A stretch of DNA of 14,997 nucleotides, taken from NCBI GenBank assembly GCA_054661495.1, contig BAAFSQ010000243.1, forward strand, positions 1 through 14,997. The letters are read 5' to 3'. Both the position numbers and the translations under genes were made by a program. Below the pieces are notes generated by a model. That model saw only the letters and a list, made by a program, of their open reading frames with translations, had not been told where the DNA came from and made no database searches. Shown here in pieces: positions 134-14,997 of this stretch. Each line of letters opens with the position of its first letter. Position 1 is the first letter of the stretch. The stretch comes from Zygophlyctis sp. KS116. Lineage: Eukaryota; Fungi; Chytridiomycota.

Positions 134-1390
134 ATGATAGAAGCAGTTATCATTTTATTCTTTCTTTTATTTCAGAATGTAGTTGATGCACAATCATGCC
201 TTATACTTGATGAGACAAACGCATGCGGGAGAGACTTTGTTGGTTTTCCTATCGATCTTCCAGCAATCAATTCCGTTCAGCAATTTAACAATGAGTTAGC
301 CAGTAGTACTAATGCTAATGCATATGCTGAATTTGGATGTAAAGCTGAAGAGATAAGTCAGTCCGCCATACCTTTTCTCAGATATTATAGCTCATTCTGG
401 TGTTCAGCTTGGGTAGGAGAAGCAGCCCAAAAGAATTGTACCTCAAATAAATCAAACTCAAGTGCATGGCCAGTCCTTTGTAGGGACCAATGCTCGTTGG
501 CAATATCTTCATTTAACTCACTGCTCAAAAGCTGTTCAGACAATTCGGACAAAATGGTACAGAATAGGAAGAAAATGATTGACTATTTCACAAAAACTTG
601 CCAAGAGTTTTCTTCAAAGCAAACCGATTCCAAATCTTGTACTCAAGGGGCTGAAGTGGAATCAAAATTTTGTGGTAAGATATTTTAAAATAATTTAGTA
701 GGTTGGAGTTCTAAGGATCTTGCTGTTACAAATTGTAAAAAGGATAGTAGCTCTTCATGCTGCTCCTCACTCTTAATCTCTGAAAATCGCCCAAATCAAA
801 TGGAAGCATGGAAAATCGCATTGATTGTGATTGCAGGGATCATTGTTTTGTTAGCTGTATACTTATTTTATCGGTCGAAACGGAAAGTTTCTACACTCTC
901 TGTTAAGGGGCTAGAGAGAGATTATCAATCTAATGAAAAAATGGACTTATCTGAAGATGCAAGGCGCATGAGCCGCAATACTCTAAGTTTAAGTAGCATA
1001 GGTCAACTTTCAATCAGTGAATCGGTAGAAGGTTATTCAGAAACATATAGTTTAAGGCCTGAAGTAAAGGAAAATTATATGCGAGTAGCCATAGAGAAGT
1101 TTACTACATCTGGATCAGACGAACTTCCGTTAGATATAGGCGATCTTGTATATTGCTTGAAAGAATTCGATGATGGCTGGGCATTGGGCTGCAATCCAAT
1201 CACACAGGAGCAGGGTGTTTTTCCTCTAATGTTAACTAGAGCCAAAAATGATGACTCAGTGGACATCTTTGATAAGAAATTATCATTTATTCGAAAACCA
1301 AGTATACGCATGTCTTCTCGCAGTAGTTTAGCCTCAGGATATAGCATAGAAAGTATAGGGGTAAATCCATTCAGAGGAAATGGATTTTAA
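134..1390 (+). CDS. Type I membrane protein: signal peptide, Cys-rich (Frizzled/Mid1-CRD-like) ectodomain, TM helix, cytoplasmic SH3 domain (~409 aa)
   Basis: Exons 134-674 and 702-1390, joined across a 27-nt intron (gtaaga...ttagtag, 675-701), give ...SKFCGWSSKDLAVTNCKKDSSSSCC... in frame. N-terminal hydrophobic signal. Cys motifs RYYSSFWC, LCRDQC and CTQG..E..FCG resemble a conserved fungal CRD-TM-SH3 family. TM IALIVIAGIIVLLAVYLFY is followed by RSKRK. SH3 motifs: DELPLDIGD, DDGWALG, GVFP. Confidence 0.85.
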
Positions 1391-1473: not shown

Positions 1474-3395
1474 ATGTTATCTAGTGAGAATGATCCAGTT
1501 TTAGGTCGATATGGTCGATCAGCCGATGCATTATCATTCTTTGCAATCATTTTATGTAGACTTTTTTACATATTAACATTCAGCGGTAATATATCTTGGT
1601 ATTCAAATGAATCTCCCGGGCAGACATCATTATCAGGATATTGCAAAAGCTCAATCATCTTCAAACTCAAATACTGTGTATTTCTCTAAATACTTGGCAG
1701 ACACTCCATCCGATCCTGAGCGTCCGATTGTTGCCACTGAAAGTGCGAACGTTGTAACAGAAAATGCCGGATCTATTCTAGATTTCCTTCCATCCCTCAA
1801 GAATATATTGGCTGATCAAGAAATTAAAGATGAGCCGCCGCAAAAATCATCACAAAATATTGAGAATGTCGAAAAGAAAACTCAGACACAGAATAAGCAA
1901 CCTTTTGACAGTTTTCTATTTTGGAAGCCACTATTAGCAGATCATGCAAATGAGAACAAGGAAGACTCAAACATTTTCAATGGATTTTCTACAAAATTGC
2001 AGCAATACGACTTGTATAATTGGCTGGTGAATTTTCTAGTGAATGACGAAGACTTTGATCAAGTCGTAAAAGACAAAAGCTCAAAGTCTGAGTCACAAAA
2101 GCTTGATTCTAATAGTCCCTTCTCAATTATTGATAGTCTTTTTGCAGATCCAGATCTAGCTGGTGCGATTTCTGGCGTAAAAGATCAGGAAAAGAATAGA
2201 ATTAAAGAAAATGTTATACCAACGGATACTTTGAAAATCAAGGAAAAAGAAAGGAATCAAAAAGAGCAAGAAAACAATCAAGAAGAACAGGTCAAAAAAG
2301 AAAAATTGGATGACGAACTTCATTTGGAAACAGACGAGCTGCTAGAATCTTTTAAAATTTTTCTAAGAGGATATTCTGCTGGAAAATCCAAAAAGAAGTC
2401 CAGTGATGAAATTCGAACAGACTTTAAGACATTTTTGGAGACTAAGCAGAATTTGGACAAAGGTAAGTCTAAATTTCTTTAATTATTTAGAAGATCAGGC
2501 ACAAAAATCATCATCCAAGAAAATTATAATTGAAGAAACAAAGTTTCGCAAAGGGACTGCTGAGAAAAATTTGGGGGTTTCCTCCATTCTAAGTAAGTTC
2601 TTGGTTGACGATGAGCTAGTGGTAAGCCAAAATCAAGGACTGAAACAGGTGAAAAATGCCCAACCAGAAGATTCTAGCTTCGAACATGTTAGCAACTTTT
2701 TAAAGGGGATTCTGGCCGATGATGGTCAAACTAAAGACTCTAAGCCGAGAAATGAAGGCATGAACAATAGAAATGAGATAACTGATTTATTACAAGAATT
2801 TCTAGCTGGAAATCAGAAAATAGAAACTTCGCAAACTGCTCAAAATGAAGAAAAACAAGACAAGAAAGGATCCACCGTTACCGACTTATTCGAGGAATTA
2901 TTAGTAGAGAAAGATTCGGAAGTAAACTCACCAAGTAAGCGGAGCAGCAGTGATTCCGATTCTTCCAATTTTTTTACTTCGTTATTGGCAGATGATTCCT
3001 CGGATAGTAACAGTAATCCAACTACATCTGGGCCCAAAATTTTATCATTTTTTAAGAATCTAATGGCAAAAGAGACCTCTGCTGGAAACAAGGATATTAA
3101 AACTCCCATGAATGATTTTTTGGATTTTTTCGGAAGTGTTTTGGCAGATGGAAATGTTGTAGAATCAGAATTCGAAGAAATTTCTCACGATGACCCTTTC
3201 CATTTATGTATTCAAGCTTTCTTACTAAATGGAAATGAAGCACCAAAGAGCACATTTCCTGATGAAATAAGGAAACTCTCGACTTACTTAAAAAAATTCC
3301 TTTACTCTGATGAAAATAATTATCCCAAGAAAAAAAATAGTGATAAAGAGGAGGGCAATCCATTGGAATCTTTTTTTAGTGGTTTTTTGGCATGA
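1474..3395 (+). CDS. Uncharacterised membrane-anchored protein with ~17 amphipathic 'phi-x-x-phi-phi-x-x-phi-L-A-D' repeats (~621 aa)
   Basis: Exons 1474-1555, 1584-2462 and 2491-3395. Two 28-nt introns (1556-1583 gtagac...cag; 2463-2490 gtaagt...tag) join three ORF-track frames into one ORF and rebuild an N-terminal TM (ALSFFAIILSVIYLGIQM). Confidence 0.8.
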
Positions 3396-7197: not shown

Positions 7198-7341
7198 CTG
7201 TTTAAATATATCATGGATACTGTCAATTGATTTTTTATTTTAACTGTTGAACTGCAATTCTTAAAACATGCGGCGCAAAAGGAAAAGACTTACGATACAA
7301 TGCCGCAACTGCCGTTAAAATCGATTCAAAGTTTGTCATCA

Positions 7342-7833
7342 ATGAAATACCTGTTATTGTTATTCTTGGCACAAATCATTACAGCAGACACCGTTGTCTA
7401 TATTGTACGACATGCTGATGATGGATCAGACGGACATCTTAACTCTAATGGCCAACAGCAAGCCAAATACATCAAATCATTTTTTTCTGGAAATCCTTTT
7501 CCAGTACCTTTTAAACTTGTTGCTACAGATGTTGTTCGTTGTAGAGAAACACTTGGACCTATTTCATCCAGTCTACAATTGCCTATAAACACTTGCGCTA
7601 CTGGCTTATCTACCACTCAAACTTGTTTCAAGAATAAAGTTGCTCTTGGAAAGAATAATCTATATGCTCTAAGATCTTCTGAAATGCAAAACTTTGTTAG
7701 AACCTTGGGAGCAACAGTTACTGCTGGTTGTCCGAATCCATCACAAAGCTTTAATCAGCTTTGGAAAGTTTCATGGCGGTCGAATCGTCCGAAAACATTT
7801 GAATGCTTTGATTTGATATTCCCAAACGCATAG
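7342..7833 (+). CDS. Secreted histidine phosphatase (phosphoglycerate mutase-like) superfamily protein
   Basis: Intronless. Signal peptide MKYLLLLFLAQIITA from ATG 7342 (an upstream in-frame ATG lies at 7300). Motifs VYIVRHA, L...GQQQA and RCRETLGP match the His-phosphatase branch 1 fold. Confidence 0.75.
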   Translation: MKYLLLLFLAQIITADTVVYIVRHADDGSDGHLNSNGQQQAKYIKSFFSGNPFPVPFKLVATDVVRCRETLGPISSSLQLPINTCATGLSTTQTCFKNKVALGKNNLYALRSSEMQNFVRTLGATVTAGCPNPSQSFNQLWKVSWRSNRPKTFECFDLIFPNA

Positions 7834-11108: not shown

Positions 11109-12299
11109 TTATAACAATTCGGGATAGTCCGCCTTTTTTAGACTTAGATCATACAAAGCATATAGAATTCCAACAATTCCAAACACAACGCTATAAATTT
11201 TAACCGCTTTCTGTTTGAAAAATGATAAAAAGTCATGAATAAAACTTTCTTCTCTCTGTCTTTCCTTCATTCGAGCTGTACGAAGTTCATTCTTTGATTT
11301 GAGTTCTTTTACTAGTTCAGAATCATGCTCATCTGCGGTAAAATCTGGCTTAAACGATTCCTGGTTTGTCTCTGTAAACTTTGCTTGAGTTTCAGCATCT
11401 TCTCCAAAAAACACAAATCCTTTAAGTTCTGGTTCTGGAATCGGATTATCTTGTGGTGGTACTTTTGAGATTTCGGGTTCTTTGACTCTATCACTTTTAC
11501 TAACAGAGTTTGATTCTTGAGAAATATCCTCTGATTCTTTACCGACAAAATTAGGGCCCTGAGGAATATCATTTAATTCTTTACCAACCACATCTGATCC
11601 TAGAGAAATACCTTGCAGAGTCTTTTCAAGTGATTCTTCCATTGATTTAACTGGACCTTCCGAATCAATATTATTAATATTATCTGAAACTTTTAGACTA
11701 TTTGGGCCATGATCTATCGGGAGTTTTGAAGGAGAAGTTGTTTTAGCATTCTTTTCAACATTTCTTAGTTTTTTTGCAATTTCCCTGACTCTTCCTTTTT
11801 CGGGTAAATTTCTCCAAATGTTCTGTAGTTCTTTAGAGTCTAAATGTGAAAGCGGATGAATCTTTCTAACTGCATCAGCGACTTGTGAGATTTCATTTCT
11901 GCGATTAAGACTTCTAGCATCTTTCTCAACCTGATCAATCCAGGCATTTGATAAACTTTGAACCATTTCTTGAGCATTTCTCATAGCTGCATTCTTACTT
12001 CCGTCTTGATTAATTTTCACTTTATATGATCCTTGAGTTATAATATGATTGGCTACTTTAGAGTACTGATTAAGCAATTTTTGATTATGAATCCTTGTCC
12101 GATTCTCTAATTCTTCCAAGTTAGACTCAGAATAGTACTGATTAGACTTTTGATCAGTAAAGAAATTTAGCGTCAGAGCTTCCAAATTCGTTCTAAATTC
12201 TCCCAGAATATAATCTGTAGTGGCATTTATTTTTTCAATTGGAGATAATGCATTGGCCTGATAAGCATAGATTGCATTCAAGAGATAAAGAAAGATCAT
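11109..12299 (-). CDS. Uncharacterised type I membrane/secreted precursor with Kex2-type SLNRR site (distant member of the 13.5-15 kb family, ~396 aa)
   Basis: Intronless from ATG 12299. Signal peptide MIFLYLLNAIYAYQANA; NAQEMVQSLSNAW...SLNRR; C-terminal TM IYSVVFGIVGILYALY. Confidence 0.75.
   Translation of the reverse strand: MIFLYLLNAIYAYQANALSPIEKINATTDYILGEFRTNLEALTLNFFTDQKSNQYYSESNLEELENRTRIHNQKLLNQYSKVANHIITQGSYKVKINQDGSKNAAMRNAQEMVQSLSNAWIDQVEKDARSLNRRNEISQVADAVRKIHPLSHLDSKELQNIWRNLPEKGRVREIAKKLRNVEKNAKTTSPSKLPIDHGPNSLKVSDNINNIDSEGPVKSMEESLEKTLQGISLGSDVVGKELNDIPQGPNFVGKESEDISQESNSVSKSDRVKEPEISKVPPQDNPIPEPELKGFVFFGEDAETQAKFTETNQESFKPDFTADEHDSELVKELKSKNELRTARMKERQREESFIHDFLSFFKQKAVKIYSVVFGIVGILYALYDLSLKKADYPELL
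11485..11610 (-). repeat. Degenerate 42-bp (14-aa) tandem repeat, about 3 copies, in coding sequence
   Basis: ISLGSDVVGKELND / IPQGPNFVGKESED / ISQESNSVSKSDRV; g(a/g)aata ends recur at 11526, 11568 and 11610. Confidence 0.7.
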
Positions 12300-12483: not shown

Positions 12484-13383
12484 ATGTTTTCCAAAACTCT
12501 TTTGTTATCATTACTTACTTCTCTGTCTATTGCTCTTCCTTCTGGATCTCCAATCTGTGATATAGATGATGAATTCTCTAAACATCATGGAGCTGAAGAT
12601 CCTAACGCTGGATTTTCTGCAACGGTCAATCAGAATGGTGGTTCATATACCATTCGATTGCAGGGTAAAGATACTCCTATTCATGGGGTACTCATGTATG
12701 TTTCTAAAGATTCTGATAAATCATCTCGTCTTGGACAGTTTACTGCTAAAGATGGATTCAAGTTTGTCAGTGGTTGTCATGCGTCACTTAAAGAAACAAC
12801 AATCACTCACGGAAATTCTCAGCTTAAAAAGGAAACTGAATTCACTTGGACCCCCGGTCCTGATGATAAAGGTTCTTTTACTTTGCATGCAGTAGTCAGT
12901 GGTGAAAAAGTCCCATGGCAGCGTCTCAAATTGCAGTTGACAACACAAACTGTTCAGACTCCTTCAGTGACAGAGTCAGCTAGCGAGGCTTCTGATATTT
13001 CAACCCCCACTATCGAAGCTTCTGATATTCCAACCTCCACTATCAAAACTTCTGATATTTTAACCTCCACTATCGAAGCTTCTGATATTTTAACCTCCAC
13101 TATCGAAGCTTCTGATATATCAACCTCCAATATCAAAACTTCTTCCGTTCCAACATCTGTTGCTCCAAAGTCTACTTCTATCCAATCTGCTTATTTCCCA
13201 ATTCCAACAGACGGAAAATTCGAAATTTCGAAAGCTTCTGGTTCAGCCATTATAACAAAACCGGATTATTCCTCAAGCCCAACACCAGATGATCATGTCG
13301 GATTAACCTTTACCAGTGGCGTTTCTCTTTCAGGTGATTTGTCGACATTCTTGAGTATTCTTATGGCCCTTGTTATTTTGTAA
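12484..13383 (+). CDS. Secreted, probably GPI-anchored Reeler-domain protein with Ser/Thr-rich stalk (299 aa)
   Basis: Signal peptide. Reeler-like motifs ALPSGSPIC, HG, GVLMYV, GQF, TITH...K, FTWTP. S/T-rich stalk and hydrophobic C-terminus (TFLSILMALVIL) with no cytoplasmic tail. Confidence 0.82.
   Translation: MFSKTLLLSLLTSLSIALPSGSPICDIDDEFSKHHGAEDPNAGFSATVNQNGGSYTIRLQGKDTPIHGVLMYVSKDSDKSSRLGQFTAKDGFKFVSGCHASLKETTITHGNSQLKKETEFTWTPGPDDKGSFTLHAVVSGEKVPWQRLKLQLTTQTVQTPSVTESASEASDISTPTIEASDIPTSTIKTSDILTSTIEASDILTSTIEASDISTSNIKTSSVPTSVAPKSTSIQSAYFPIPTDGKFEISKASGSAIITKPDYSSSPTPDDHVGLTFTSGVSLSGDLSTFLSILMALVIL
12985..13143 (+). repeat. 30-bp (10-aa) coding minisatellite, about 5.3 copies
   Basis: Unit approximately tctgatatttyaacctccactatcraarct, encoding SDI(S/P/L)T(S/P)(T/N)I(EA/KT), at 12991-13140. 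Confidence 0.95.
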
Positions 13384-13533: not shown

Positions 13534-14418
13534 TCATCCGTAGTAAACGTATTTATCAGGATCCGGAAATGAGCCACCATATGTATATCCATAAGTAGAA
13601 GGTGGAATATAAGGAGGAGGGTAGGTGGGCGGAACAACTCCCGAAACGCTGAATGGTGGAACTGGAGGTGGAACTATATATCCTCTTGGAGCAAAGAGAG
13701 CTCTTAGAGCCCATAGGATGAATAATGATGCAGCAATCACTACACCGACGAGTCCTGCAATTTGTACCCAATTCTTTGATCCAGCAGCCTTCTTTGCATT
13801 CTCATCAATAGAACGACTCGAAGGTGTTTTTTCATTGGGATGTTTAGTTTTTCGTAGATTTTGTAGATTATCTGATGAGGCTGAGGTGAAACTACTAACA
13901 TCATCTGATGAAGTCCGAACTCCTCGGCCAAGAGACTCTGCAACCTCGCCAACTCCCTTTACTAGAATCATTCTACGAGCCAAGGAATGATCGCTATTTG
14001 AAATCGTTCCCCATTCAACAGCCAGCTGTTTTTGGATGATTTTAGCGTTTTCAGTTATGCCATCAACTTCATTATCAACAACTGCTTCTTCTCGTTTGTA
14101 GACTGCTGAAGCAGCTGGATGGTAAAATCCTCCTCCAGGAGCCGGTCGATAAAGGTATGGATTATTTTCGTCACAACCAGATTTAACGATTCCGTATGCT
14201 CTGGGATAATATTGCTTAAGAATGTTTGGATGGAATCCATAATTTCTTTTGGACAAGCTGCCTTGCTCTACAGTTTGATTCTTGATTTCATTTTCAATGA
14301 ATTTCATGATTTGATTGACTGTTGATCGGATCTGGGCCTCTTTATTATCATCGATTGTTGAGTCTGTGGCAGTGGAATAGGCCAAGAAGAAGTTGAGAAG
14401 CAACAATGAAAATTGCAT
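13534..14418 (-). CDS. Uncharacterised multiply Kex2-cleavable type I membrane precursor with PPxY cytoplasmic tail (294 aa)
   Basis: Intronless from ATG 14418. Signal peptide MQFSLLLLNFFLAYSTA; dibasic sites SLSKR, VYKR and SLARR; TM WVQIAGLVGVVIAASLFILWAL; tail PPTYPPPY. Confidence 0.82.
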   Translation of the reverse strand: MQFSLLLLNFFLAYSTATDSTIDDNKEAQIRSTVNQIMKFIENEIKNQTVEQGSLSKRNYGFHPNILKQYYPRAYGIVKSGCDENNPYLYRPAPGGGFYHPAASAVYKREEAVVDNEVDGITENAKIIQKQLAVEWGTISNSDHSLARRMILVKGVGEVAESLGRGVRTSSDDVSSFTSASSDNLQNLRKTKHPNEKTPSSRSIDENAKKAAGSKNWVQIAGLVGVVIAASLFILWALRALFAPRGYIVPPPVPPFSVSGVVPPTYPPPYIPPSTYGYTYGGSFPDPDKYVYYG

Positions 14419-14429
14419 TTTAAATGTCG

Positions 14430-14509
14430 TGAAACGCAGGGGCAGCTGCATAAATCCTGAATCGGACATGAAACTGAAAATTTTCTCGCCAATGAAACGC
14501 AATGAAACA
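14430..14509. promoter_or_regulatory. Cluster of four TGAAAC (Ste12 PRE-like) motifs plus AATCGGACAT
   Basis: TGAAACG at 14430, ATGAAACT at 14468, ATGAAACG at 14492 and ATGAAACA at 14502, all in the same orientation and 12-91 nt upstream of ATG 14418. Confidence 0.45.
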
Positions 14510-14620
14510 AAAACCAAAAGTGATATTTATATTCATCATTATTATTCAACTAGCGAAAATCATTGTGAACTAATAAACACCGAAGTTAAAGTGAGTGCGC
14601 AGATAATTTATTCAAAATCA

Positions 14621-14997
14621 TCAATCTAACAATTGGGGAATCAAATAAGTGAAAAGAACCCCCAACAATGCAGAAACAACAGCGGATGTAAATATAACTA
14701 TCCCAATCACACCGACTATTTCTAAGGAATTTCTAAACATTGGTCTCCTAGTTGTAGTTTGAAAGTTTTGCGGAGCCCCTGAATGTTTCGAAGCAGCAGT
14801 AATTACACTAGCATCATCATATGAAGATCTCAAACCAGCTGCAAACGACTGAGCAACGCCACCCAGCGTGACTCCGAATCGTCTCCGAGTCAAAGAGTTG
14901 TATTGGCTCGAGAGTTTTTCCCACTCCATAGCTAATTGTTTTTGGATGATTTTAACGTTTTCAGTCAGAGCATCTACATCTTGATCAACTGCTTCTT
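14621..14997 (-). CDS. Tandem paralogue of the 13534-14418 gene (5' end beyond the window)
   Basis: The frame is open to the window edge. EAVDQDVDALTENVKIIQKQLAMEWEKLSSQYNSLTRR aligns with EAVVDNEVDGITENAKIIQKQLAVEWGTISNSDHSLARR, with DNA-level similarity (14028-14055 vs 14938-14965). C-terminal TM present. Confidence 0.85.
   Translation of the reverse strand, partial: EAVDQDVDALTENVKIIQKQLAMEWEKLSSQYNSLTRRRFGVTLGGVAQSFAAGLRSSYDDASVITAASKHSGAPQNFQTTTRRPMFRNSLEIVGVIGIVIFTSAVVSALLGVLFTYLIPQLLD

What the first reader, a model, noticed from the sequence alone, without database searches (positions are those of the whole stretch)
13534..14997. Unrecognised family of Kex2-activated membrane precursors that expose a Gly-rich amphipathic N-terminus (fusion-peptide- or toxin-like)
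Seen: two tandem paralogues share a conserved acidic/helical pro-segment (TEN.KIIQKQLA.EW...SL.RR). Directly after RR each has a Gly-rich amphipathic helix (MILVKGVGEVAESLGRGVR; RFGVTLGGVAQSFAAGLR), then a conserved S.DD.S..T.AS linker, a short polar spacer and one TM with G-x-x-G. Established: L-x-R/K-R is a typical fungal Kex2 site. Dibasic cleavage releasing a Gly-rich amphipathic N-terminus is the logic of class I viral fusion proteins and of peptide-toxin precursors such as Candida Ece1. Inference: these may be protease-activated, membrane-tethered, membrane-active proteins (adhesion, cell fusion or antagonism) from a family I cannot assign to any known domain.
Basis: partly seen in the sequence, partly recalled or inferred. 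Interest (0 to 1): 0.8.

Follow-up and report, generated by a model that had tools for sequence, protein, structure and literature searches.

The report
Triple-cut fungal surface peptide precursor
Two neighbouring genes of what is likely a freshwater chytrid-type fungus belong to an unnamed family of predicted membrane-anchored proteins with three conserved dibasic sites; cutting there would free a conserved tyrosine-rich, positively charged peptide and leave a variable surface stalk, most likely for attachment and unlikely to work as a viral-type fusion protein.

Summary
The complete gene (14418-13534, minus strand) reads: signal peptide, acidic helix, LSKR, 49-residue Tyr-rich cationic peptide with the only Cys, VYKR, acidic helix, LARR, variable stalk, one TM helix, tail. 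18 relatives were found, all labelled ENA, JGI or Logan and none NCBI/UniRef; no significant Pfam, NCBIfam, PHROGs, PDB or fold match. All three dibasic sites are conserved. The internal peptide is the most conserved segment (mean identity 0.56); the post-RR helix is among the least (0.21). That helix stays amphipathic (8 of 11 rows against 0 of 38 control windows), but Gly-richness, the S.DD linker and TM GxxG are not family traits, and no heptad repeats follow, so a class I fusogen is unlikely. AlphaFold predicts residues 19-149 as three helices (pTM 0.69) with the cut sites in loops. Most likely a kexin-matured surface precursor: it sheds a conserved peptide held by acidic pro-helices and leaves a diversifying tethered stalk, probably for attachment. 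Cleavage, expression and function are untested.

The parts
13534..14418 (-). P0001, complete single-exon gene, 294 aa precursor (an in-frame ATG at 14469 would add 17 aa)
   Evidence: P0003 matches at 90% identity over 98% of the length
14368..14418 (-). predicted signal peptide (about residues 1-17)
   Evidence: hydrophobic N-terminus in every full-length relative; judged by inspection, no SignalP available
14245..14367 (-). pro-segment 1: acidic helix ending in dibasic site 1 (LSKR58)
   Evidence: helix at residues 20-51 in model m9edca2f68819; mean identity 0.46; site in 14 of 14 rows that cover it
14092..14244 (-). internal peptide (residues 59-109 with its KR): Tyr-rich, net positive, helix 65-81, single Cys82, Pro/Gly loop; ends in dibasic site 2 (VYKR109)
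   Evidence: most conserved segment, 0.56; P64 Q69 Y71 Y75 I77 C82 K108 R109 conserved in at least 90% of rows; Tyr 14-25% and net +1 to +5 in 9 of 9
   Evidence: helix at residues 120-144; mean identity 0.46; site in 15 of 15 rows
13918..13971 (-). post-RR amphipathic segment (150-167), predicted new N-terminus of the tethered product
   Evidence: moment above shuffles, p=0.041; mean identity 0.21; coil in the full-length model
13762..13917 (-). polar Ser/Thr-rich stalk, predicted disordered
13705..13761 (-). predicted transmembrane helix (220-238), type I orientation inferred
   Evidence: KD 2.57; helix 217-242
13537..13704 (-). predicted cytosolic Pro/Tyr/Gly-rich tail with two PPxY motifs (13609-13632) and terminal [VI]x[YF]G-stop
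   Evidence: terminal motif in 6 of 15 rows, spread over the tree
14621..14995 (-). P0002, tandem paralogue cut at its 5' end by the window: pro-segment 2 (14882-14995), post-RR segment (14828-14881), stalk, TM (14663-14719), 13-aa tail
   Evidence: pro-segment 35 of 36 identical to P0012, stalk only 5 identities; its upstream half is inferred from the assembly joint 14985 to 14079, not seen in the window

Best explanation
This is a predicted type I membrane precursor of a likely chytrid-type freshwater fungus that a kexin (Kex2-like) protease would cut at three conserved dibasic sites, likely shedding a conserved 32-57-residue Tyr-rich, cationic, single-Cys peptide and leaving a variable membrane-tethered stalk, most likely as part of a surface attachment apparatus. 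Shown: domain order, conservation of the three sites, conservation ranking, charge complementarity between the peptide and its flanks, paralogue array. Predicted: residues 19-149 fold as three helices with the peptide helix between two acidic pro-helices and the cut sites in loops. Inferred: the pro-helices hold and neutralise the sticky peptide until late-Golgi cleavage and Kex1-type trimming; the freed peptide then binds or coats an anionic surface (host wall or own cyst wall), possibly cross-linked through Tyr or Cys82; the stalk with its new amphipathic N-terminus stays on the cell and varies between paralogues; the tail motifs sort the protein. My odds: triple processing about 0.8, internal peptide as a functional product about 0.6, attachment as the role about 0.4.
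For: Dibasic sites at aligned positions in 14 of 14, 15 of 15 and 15 of 15 rows; P4 is hydrophobic in 15 of 15 at site 2, where my pattern did not require it. This fits the Kex2 motif in PMC8528282 (part 1 of 3 read). Site 2 of P0001 has the acidic P1'/P2' favoured by Kex2 (PMC2515848 passages). Sites 1 and 3 lie in low-confidence loops and site 2 in coil. Segment identities: peptide 0.56, its helix core 0.59, pro-segments 0.46, post-RR 0.21, stalk 0.21, TM 0.24. Peptide net +1 to +5 with 7-10 Tyr against pro1+pro2 net -2 to -9 with 0-2 Tyr in 9 of 9. One Cys in the mature region in 18 of 18 proteins that cover it. Some paralogue stalks carry Q/N/Y/G-rich tandem repeats of variable number. The two adjacent genes also encode predicted membrane-anchored surface proteins, one with a Reeler domain, E 6e-11. 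Published analogues: Ywp1, Rep1, Rbt1 (abstracts or passages).
Against: No direct evidence of cleavage, expression, location or binding. The conserved residues of the internal peptide could be the packing core of a removable cap and not a released product. The pro-segments are also well conserved (0.46). The post-RR segment keeps its amphipathicity (8 of 11), so it is under some constraint. No kexin gene could be checked (no genome). The organism's identity and lifestyle are inferred from neighbours and habitat, not tested. Attachment rests on composition, neighbourhood and analogy only.
Confidence: 0.42

Rival explanations
1. The whole three-helix N-terminal domain is a removable pro-domain (chaperone or cap) that the internal cuts dismantle; the working product is the variable tethered ectodomain with its unmasked amphipathic helix, acting as a diversifying adhesin or recognition protein.
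For: Near-identity between P0002 and the P0012-type paralogue (1 difference in 104 nt) stops exactly at the end of the RR codons (14882), after which the sequences diverge: a shared cassette with variable cargo. Post-RR amphipathicity in 8 of 11 rows against 0 of 38. Stalk repeats vary in number.
Against: Effector pro-domains often lack secondary structure (PMC8528282); this one is helical and the best conserved part, with Tyr and Cys concentrated in one excisable piece. The full-length model does not dock residues 150-167 on the bundle (shallow alignment, weak evidence).
Confidence: 0.25
2. The released internal peptide is a diffusible signal or antagonist (pheromone-like ligand, or an Ece1-like or antimicrobial peptide acting on host or competitor cells), and the TM part is only a sorting anchor.
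For: Cationic peptide flanked by acidic spacers. As with candidalysin, it is one internal piece between two Kex2 sites (PMC5784256 abstract). The HeliQuest-type discrimination factor is at least 0.68 in 11 of 11 peptide helices, driven by charge (threshold recalled).
Against: The peptide helix moment is not above shuffles in any of 8 rows tested, which is poor for a lytic helix. One copy per precursor and no X-A/X-P dipeptide spacers. Near-identical peptides across paralogues argue against a specificity-coding pheromone.
Confidence: 0.17
3. The domain is only nicked: the pieces stay together as a folded head (as the Ywp1 propeptide stays on its core) that is shed at RR149 or remains on the surface, possibly disulphide-linked through Cys82.
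For: Fold predicted with pTM 0.69 and conserved positions in all three helices; lone conserved Cys; Ywp1 precedent (abstract).
Against: Three conserved sites, two of them bracketing one piece exactly, suggest excision; no Cys partner exists within the protein.
Confidence: 0.1
4. One reading: cleavage at RR unmasks a fusion peptide on a membrane-tethered subunit that drives cell-cell fusion or membrane damage (class I-like, or small FAST-like).
For: Type I topology, convertase site, and a Gly/Ala-containing, moderately hydrophobic new N-terminus (G+A 3-9 of 17-20 residues). P0002 has a 16-residue uncharged run and an RR-to-TM length of 54 aa.
Against: Post-RR segment not conserved in sequence (0.21), whereas fusion peptides are generally conserved within a family (PMC10377500 passage). 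Acidic residues in 9 of 11 rows; discrimination factor at least 0.68 in only 3 of 13. No heptad periodicity in 38 stalk windows; RR-to-TM length 54-208 aa.
Confidence: 0.05

Closest known systems
Candida albicans Ywp1 and Rbt1 (surface-anchored proteins that lose or release a piece)
   Same: Signal peptide, processed N-terminal part, Ser/Thr-rich stalk, surface anchor; Ywp1 is cut by Kex2 at two basic sites (abstract); Rbt1 releases an active peptide (abstract and outline).
   Different: Those are GPI or wall-anchored; this has a TM helix and a cytosolic tail with conserved motifs. No shared Pfam family or sequence match was found.
Candida albicans Ece1/candidalysin and Ustilago maydis Rep1 (Kex2-cut peptide precursors)
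   Same: A discrete peptide between two Kex2 sites, ending in KR for Kex1-type trimming.
   Different: Those release 8 and 11 peptides and have no TM anchor (recalled); here one excised peptide sits in a predicted folded bundle on a TM anchor, and its helix is not markedly amphipathic.
KEPs, Kex2-processed repeat proteins (PMC7329392, PMC6339444; passages read)
   Same: Signal peptide plus several Kex2 sites; KEPs also occur in Chytridiomycota.
   Different: No tandem repeats between the sites; membrane-anchored.
K2PP effectors (PMC8528282)
   Same: N-terminal pro-region ending in LxxR/KR.
   Different: The pro-region is helical, conserved and cut three times; the remainder is membrane-bound and largely disordered.
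Class I viral fusion proteins and reovirus FAST proteins (PMC10866366, PMC10377500; passages)
   Same: Single-pass membrane protein; for class I, a cleavage-generated, moderately hydrophobic N-terminus.
   Different: No heptad repeats, no conserved fusion peptide, variable disordered stalk.
Animal membrane-anchored pro-peptides such as pro-TGF-alpha, ITM2B and PMEL (recalled, no call)
   Same: Convertase or sheddase release of a conserved luminal peptide from a TM precursor with a sorting tail.
   Different: No homology detected; analogy of logic only.

Membership tests
Kex2/kexin substrate | P1 Arg, P2 Lys/Arg, aliphatic P4 | tested here: met
   44 dibasic sites in 15 rows. At sites 1 and 3 my pattern required L/I/V at P4, but every row matched at the aligned column. 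At site 2, unconstrained, P4 is V 7, F 6, L 1, I 1 (Phe is hydrophobic, not aliphatic).
Kex2/kexin substrate | Entry into the secretory pathway (signal peptide) | tested here: inconclusive
   Hydrophobic N-terminus in all full-length rows by inspection; no SignalP-type tool available.
Kex2/kexin substrate | Sites accessible in the folded protein | tested here: met
   Model m9edca2f68819: sites 1 and 3 in segments with pLDDT below 50, site 2 in coil; prediction only.
Kex2/kexin substrate | Cleavage shown; kexin gene present in the organism | not testable with these tools
   No genome held; no proteomics.
KEP (Kex2-processed repeat protein) | At least 3 tandem repeats of at least 8 aa between Kex2 sites (PMC7329392) | tested here: not met
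   hhalign pro1 vs pro2 probability 16%, only the SL.[KR]R end; peptide vs post-RR 0.6%.
K2PP effector | N-terminal pro-domain, often disordered, removed from a soluble folded effector | tested here: not met
   Pro-region is predicted helical (pLDDT 76); the remainder is membrane-anchored and predicted coil.
Class I fusion protein | About 20-25-residue moderately hydrophobic Gly/Ala-rich peptide at the cleavage-generated N-terminus | tested here: inconclusive
   G+A 3-9 of 17-20 residues, acidic residues in 9 of 11 rows; P0002 fits best.
Class I fusion protein | Fusion peptide conserved within the family | tested here: not met
   Mean identity 0.21, equal to the stalk.
Class I fusion protein | Heptad repeats 1 and 2 forming a six-helix bundle | tested here: not met
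   0 of 38 stalk windows with helical hydrophobic periodicity; hydrophobic share 0.13-0.24; residues 143-215 coil with pLDDT below 50.
Class I fusion protein | Trimer; fusion activity | not tested
   No trimer job run; activity needs bench work.
Ece1/candidalysin-type toxin precursor | Active peptide lies between two Kex2 sites and ends in KR | tested here: met
   Residues 59-109.
Ece1/candidalysin-type toxin precursor | Strongly amphipathic, hydrophobic lytic helix (recalled); soluble precursor (recalled) | tested here: not met
   Moment above shuffles in 0 of 8 peptide helices; a TM helix is present.
FAST-type small fusogen | Small ectodomain on a single TM helix, with fusion activity | tested here: inconclusive
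   RR-to-TM length 54 aa in P0002, up to 208 aa in paralogues; activity not testable.
Any known fold | Structural match of the N-terminal domain | tested here: inconclusive
   Best VIA-align Z 6.3, rmsd 3.1, 85 aligned, at the level of common helical arrangements.

The most novel reading that the evidence does not exclude
A two-product host-attachment and entry device of alga-parasitic zoosporic fungi: one kexin-triggered precursor releases a conserved Tyr/Cys adhesive peptide from a three-helix cage and at the same time unmasks a membrane-active amphipathic helix on a hypervariable tethered stalk that sets host range, or in the short-stalk paralogue fuses membranes. It would be a named molecular candidate for chytrid parasite adhesion, which PMC10512372 lists as an open question.
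Probability: 0.12. Interest if true: 0.8.

Novelty: new variant of a known kind. Interest (0 to 1): 0.5.

Why it matters
The family has no name, domain or fold match in the libraries searched, and it joins two logics usually seen apart in fungi: an excised internal peptide (Ece1, Rep1) and a cleaved surface anchor (Ywp1), here on a true TM helix with a conserved cytosolic end. If the organism is an aquatic chytrid-type parasite, the proteins behind attachment are an acknowledged gap (PMC10512372). A 32-49-residue peptide can be synthesised and the precursor expressed in yeast, so the idea is cheap to test. If the peptide is only the core of a pro-domain, this remains a lineage-restricted surface family of modest interest.

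Tried and rejected
Family scans: Pfam no hit for P0001, best E 0.024 over 13 members; NCBIfam best E 0.009, far below cut-off; PHROGs best E 0.009. PDB sequence profiles: best E 0.15 and 0.7. Fold searches: full-length model 0 Foldseek hits at E<=0.001, best Z 6.7; N-domain model 0 hits in PDB and BFVD, best Z 6.3; absence does not show a new fold. Homodimer of the N-domain: no answer, score 0.02, alignment not used; no evidence either way. Loci of relatives: none among 593 and 58 pattern matches in metagenome contigs or 270 in viral contigs, so synteny is untested. No genome held. The ESM Atlas gave no result for this protein or three relatives. Two RNA runs with a small share covered only pieces of the Reeler gene: no evidence on expression. 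Small-share runs X11-X24 were not used for habitat. Earlier scan notes: nothing. Print: four family motifs in 0 papers; searches listed no such family; a find in PMC13391722 gave 0 hits for kex, adhes, secreted, effector and signal peptide; subscription journals and supplements were not searched. Rejected: internal duplication pro1/pro2; the source label 'conjugal transfer/entry exclusion protein' on the 89-aa fragment P0018, which nothing else supports; TM GxxG and the S.DD linker as family motifs; a RiPP cluster (no tailoring domain among 12 ORFs scanned, but the upstream side is unseen). Word-based searches miss distant relatives: searches did not return some of their own query members.

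Full report
What is there. The interval holds two minus-strand ORFs. P0001 (14418-13534) is complete, 294 aa. P0002 (14995-14621) is cut by the window end, 124 aa. They align at 38% identity, E 8e-22. The surroundings look fungal and compact: a PH+PB1 protein that I read as Cdc24, a CwfJ zinc-knuckle protein, a carnosine methyltransferase, an SH3 membrane protein and a Reeler-domain protein (gene names recalled). The ten runs holding at least a fifth of the words are one coded organism of 14 million letters and nine freshwater, lake or estuary metagenomes; three of the ten may be the source. An early-diverging, chytrid-type freshwater fungus is my inference; no call tested the taxonomy.

Anatomy. 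P0001 reads: signal peptide (about 1-17, by inspection), acidic segment ending LSKR58, a 49-residue peptide plus KR109, a second acidic segment ending LARR149, an 18-residue amphipathic segment, a polar stalk, one TM helix (220-238, KD 2.57) and a 56-residue tail. These three are the only KR/RR sites before the TM helix.

The family. Three word-index searches, one full HMMER search and cluster look-ups gave 18 relatives, P0003-P0020. Their sources are ENA, JGI/IMG or Logan, none NCBI or UniRef. No Pfam, NCBIfam, PHROGs or PDB match was significant. A tree of the N-terminal half of 15 rows (fragment P0018, P0002 and near-copies P0006, P0010, P0011 left out; midpoint root, for drawing only) shows a cluster of close paralogues around P0001 and several distant branches (P0013, P0014, P0015/P0020, P0016, P0017/P0019).

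What is conserved. Mean pairwise identity over nine distinct rows: internal peptide 0.56 (helix core 0.59), both pro-segments 0.46, post-RR segment 0.21, stalk 0.21, TM 0.24, tail 0.26. All three dibasic sites are kept: 14 of 14, 15 of 15 and 15 of 15 rows. P4 was required to be L/I/V by my pattern at sites 1 and 3; at site 2 it was free and is hydrophobic in 15 of 15. That fits the Kex2 motif (PMC8528282, part 1 of 3 read), and the acidic residues after site 2 of P0001 fit the P1'/P2' preference (PMC2515848, passages). The excisable peptide is 32-57 aa, 14-25% Tyr and net +1 to +5, while the two pro-segments together are net -2 to -9 with 0-2 Tyr, in 9 of 9 rows; P0004, not in that set, has a net-zero peptide. 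It holds the only Cys of the mature protein in 18 of 18 proteins that cover it. The Pro/Gly loop is missing in P0016, P0017 and P0019, so the minimal unit is the helix, the Cys and the aromatic-KR end.

Fold. AlphaFold on residues 19-149 with 15 sequences gives pLDDT 76, pTM 0.69: helices at about 20-51, 65-81 and 120-144, site 1 and site 3 in low-confidence loops, site 2 in coil. The full-length model has the same helices and leaves 143-215 as coil under pLDDT 50. I could not inspect contacts, so packing of the peptide helix between the pro-helices is inferred from the pTM and from matches to helical bundles. No fold search stood above background.

The post-RR segment. P0002 itself is not significant (p=0.195), and five rows are close paralogues. 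It is not a conserved fusion peptide: identity 0.21, Gly 1-4 of 20, acidic residues in 9 of 11 rows, discrimination factor at least 0.68 in 3 of 13 (threshold recalled). Class I fusogens need heptad repeats that form a six-helix bundle (PMC10866366, passages), and their fusion peptides are generally conserved within a family (PMC10377500, passages). Here the RR-to-TM distance is 54-208 aa, polar, and without periodicity. The S.DD linker and TM GxxG are features of a few paralogues only. Against a lytic role for the internal peptide, its helix moment beats shuffles in 0 of 8 rows (three rows not tested).

Paralogue array. All 6 DNA runs laid show a contig that matches 14882-14985 and then continues, exactly after the RR codons, into another sequence, that of the P0012 type; 5 of them show the joint 14985 to 14079 (X1 may be the window's source). 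So at least a third paralogue exists, and P0002 most likely carries the whole N-terminal cassette upstream of the window (inferred). P0002 and P0012 share 35 of 36 pro-segment residues but only 5 identities in their best stalk alignment, while the P0002 stalk is closest to that of P0001 (17 of 36). This mosaic suggests conversion or recombination that keeps the cassette uniform while the stalks diverge. Some stalks carry Q/N/Y/G-rich repeats of varying number. P0006 and P0010 each list a longest contig of 2917 bases, a hint only that they are neighbours. This pattern fits both the released-peptide and the removable-cap reading.

Tail. P0001 has two PPxY motifs (binding of Rsp5-type ligases is recalled). 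Six of 15 rows end in [VI]x[YF]G-stop and two in WWGR; five close paralogues have short tails and two rows are fragments. The motif lies on both sides of the tree, so it is probably ancestral and P0001 the copy that kept it. Its function is unknown; sorting is my guess.

How it most likely works. Secretory entry, folding of the cassette, kexin cuts at three loops and Kex1-type trimming would give a cationic Tyr-rich peptide, two acidic helices and a tethered stalk. I take the peptide to be a working product because conservation, Tyr, charge and the Cys all concentrate in exactly the piece that two sites bracket. I take attachment as the likeliest role because of that composition, the adhesin-like variable stalks, and two adjacent predicted surface proteins (11109-12299 and the Reeler gene 12484-13383). 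That last step is analogy, hence 0.42. Rivals: removable cap with the stalk as product 0.25; diffusible signal or antagonist 0.17; nicked head 0.10; fusogen 0.05.

Known systems and novelty. It works like Ece1 or Rep1 in excising an internal peptide (PMC5784256 abstract and outline; PMC3133707 listing) and like Ywp1 or Rbt1 in being a processed surface protein (PMC6258133 and PMC12578311, abstracts and outlines), but it is a member of none. It fails the repeat criterion of KEPs (PMC7329392, passages). Four family motifs occur in none of the papers searched; supplements, including the KEP tables, were not searched. Verdict: a real, unnamed family and a new variant of a known kind of convertase-processed precursor; the fusion-protein reading is unlikely; interest 0.5.

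Noticed in passing
window 12484-13383 (+): Signal peptide, Reeler domain (E 6e-11), six 30-nt Ser/Thr repeats and a hydrophobic C-terminus (GPI-like, by inspection); one other run lacks two repeat units. Convergent with P0001.
   Followed up: partly
window 11109-12299 (-): 396-aa protein with predicted signal peptide and C-terminal TM helix, no Pfam hit and no exact record; with the Reeler gene, P0001 and P0002 it makes four adjacent predicted surface proteins.
   Followed up: no
window 1607-3395 (+): Two overlapping ORFs in different frames carry at least 11 copies of a short hydrophobic-acidic motif (F/L..L[LFM][AV][DEG][DEN]) about 26-42 aa apart; probably one gene split by an intron or frameshift; no Pfam hit.
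   Followed up: partly
window 134-1390 (+): Likely two exons of one gene: signal peptide, Cys-rich ectodomain, TM helix and cytosolic SH3 domain (E 1e-6).
   Followed up: no
window 7300-7833 (+): Small protein with a predicted signal peptide and a histidine-phosphatase domain (E 1e-4).
   Followed up: no
P0013, P0020 and P0001 tails: Tails of distant relatives have independently expanded Tyr/Gly/Pro-rich short repeats before the shared terminal [VI]x[YF]G; the terminal aromatic-Gly recalls the Atg8 C-terminus and acidic-aromatic adhesin tails (recalled, untested).
   Followed up: partly
window 14882: Near-identity between two paralogues ends exactly at the codon boundary of the third cleavage site, in 6 of 6 DNA runs laid.
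   Followed up: yes
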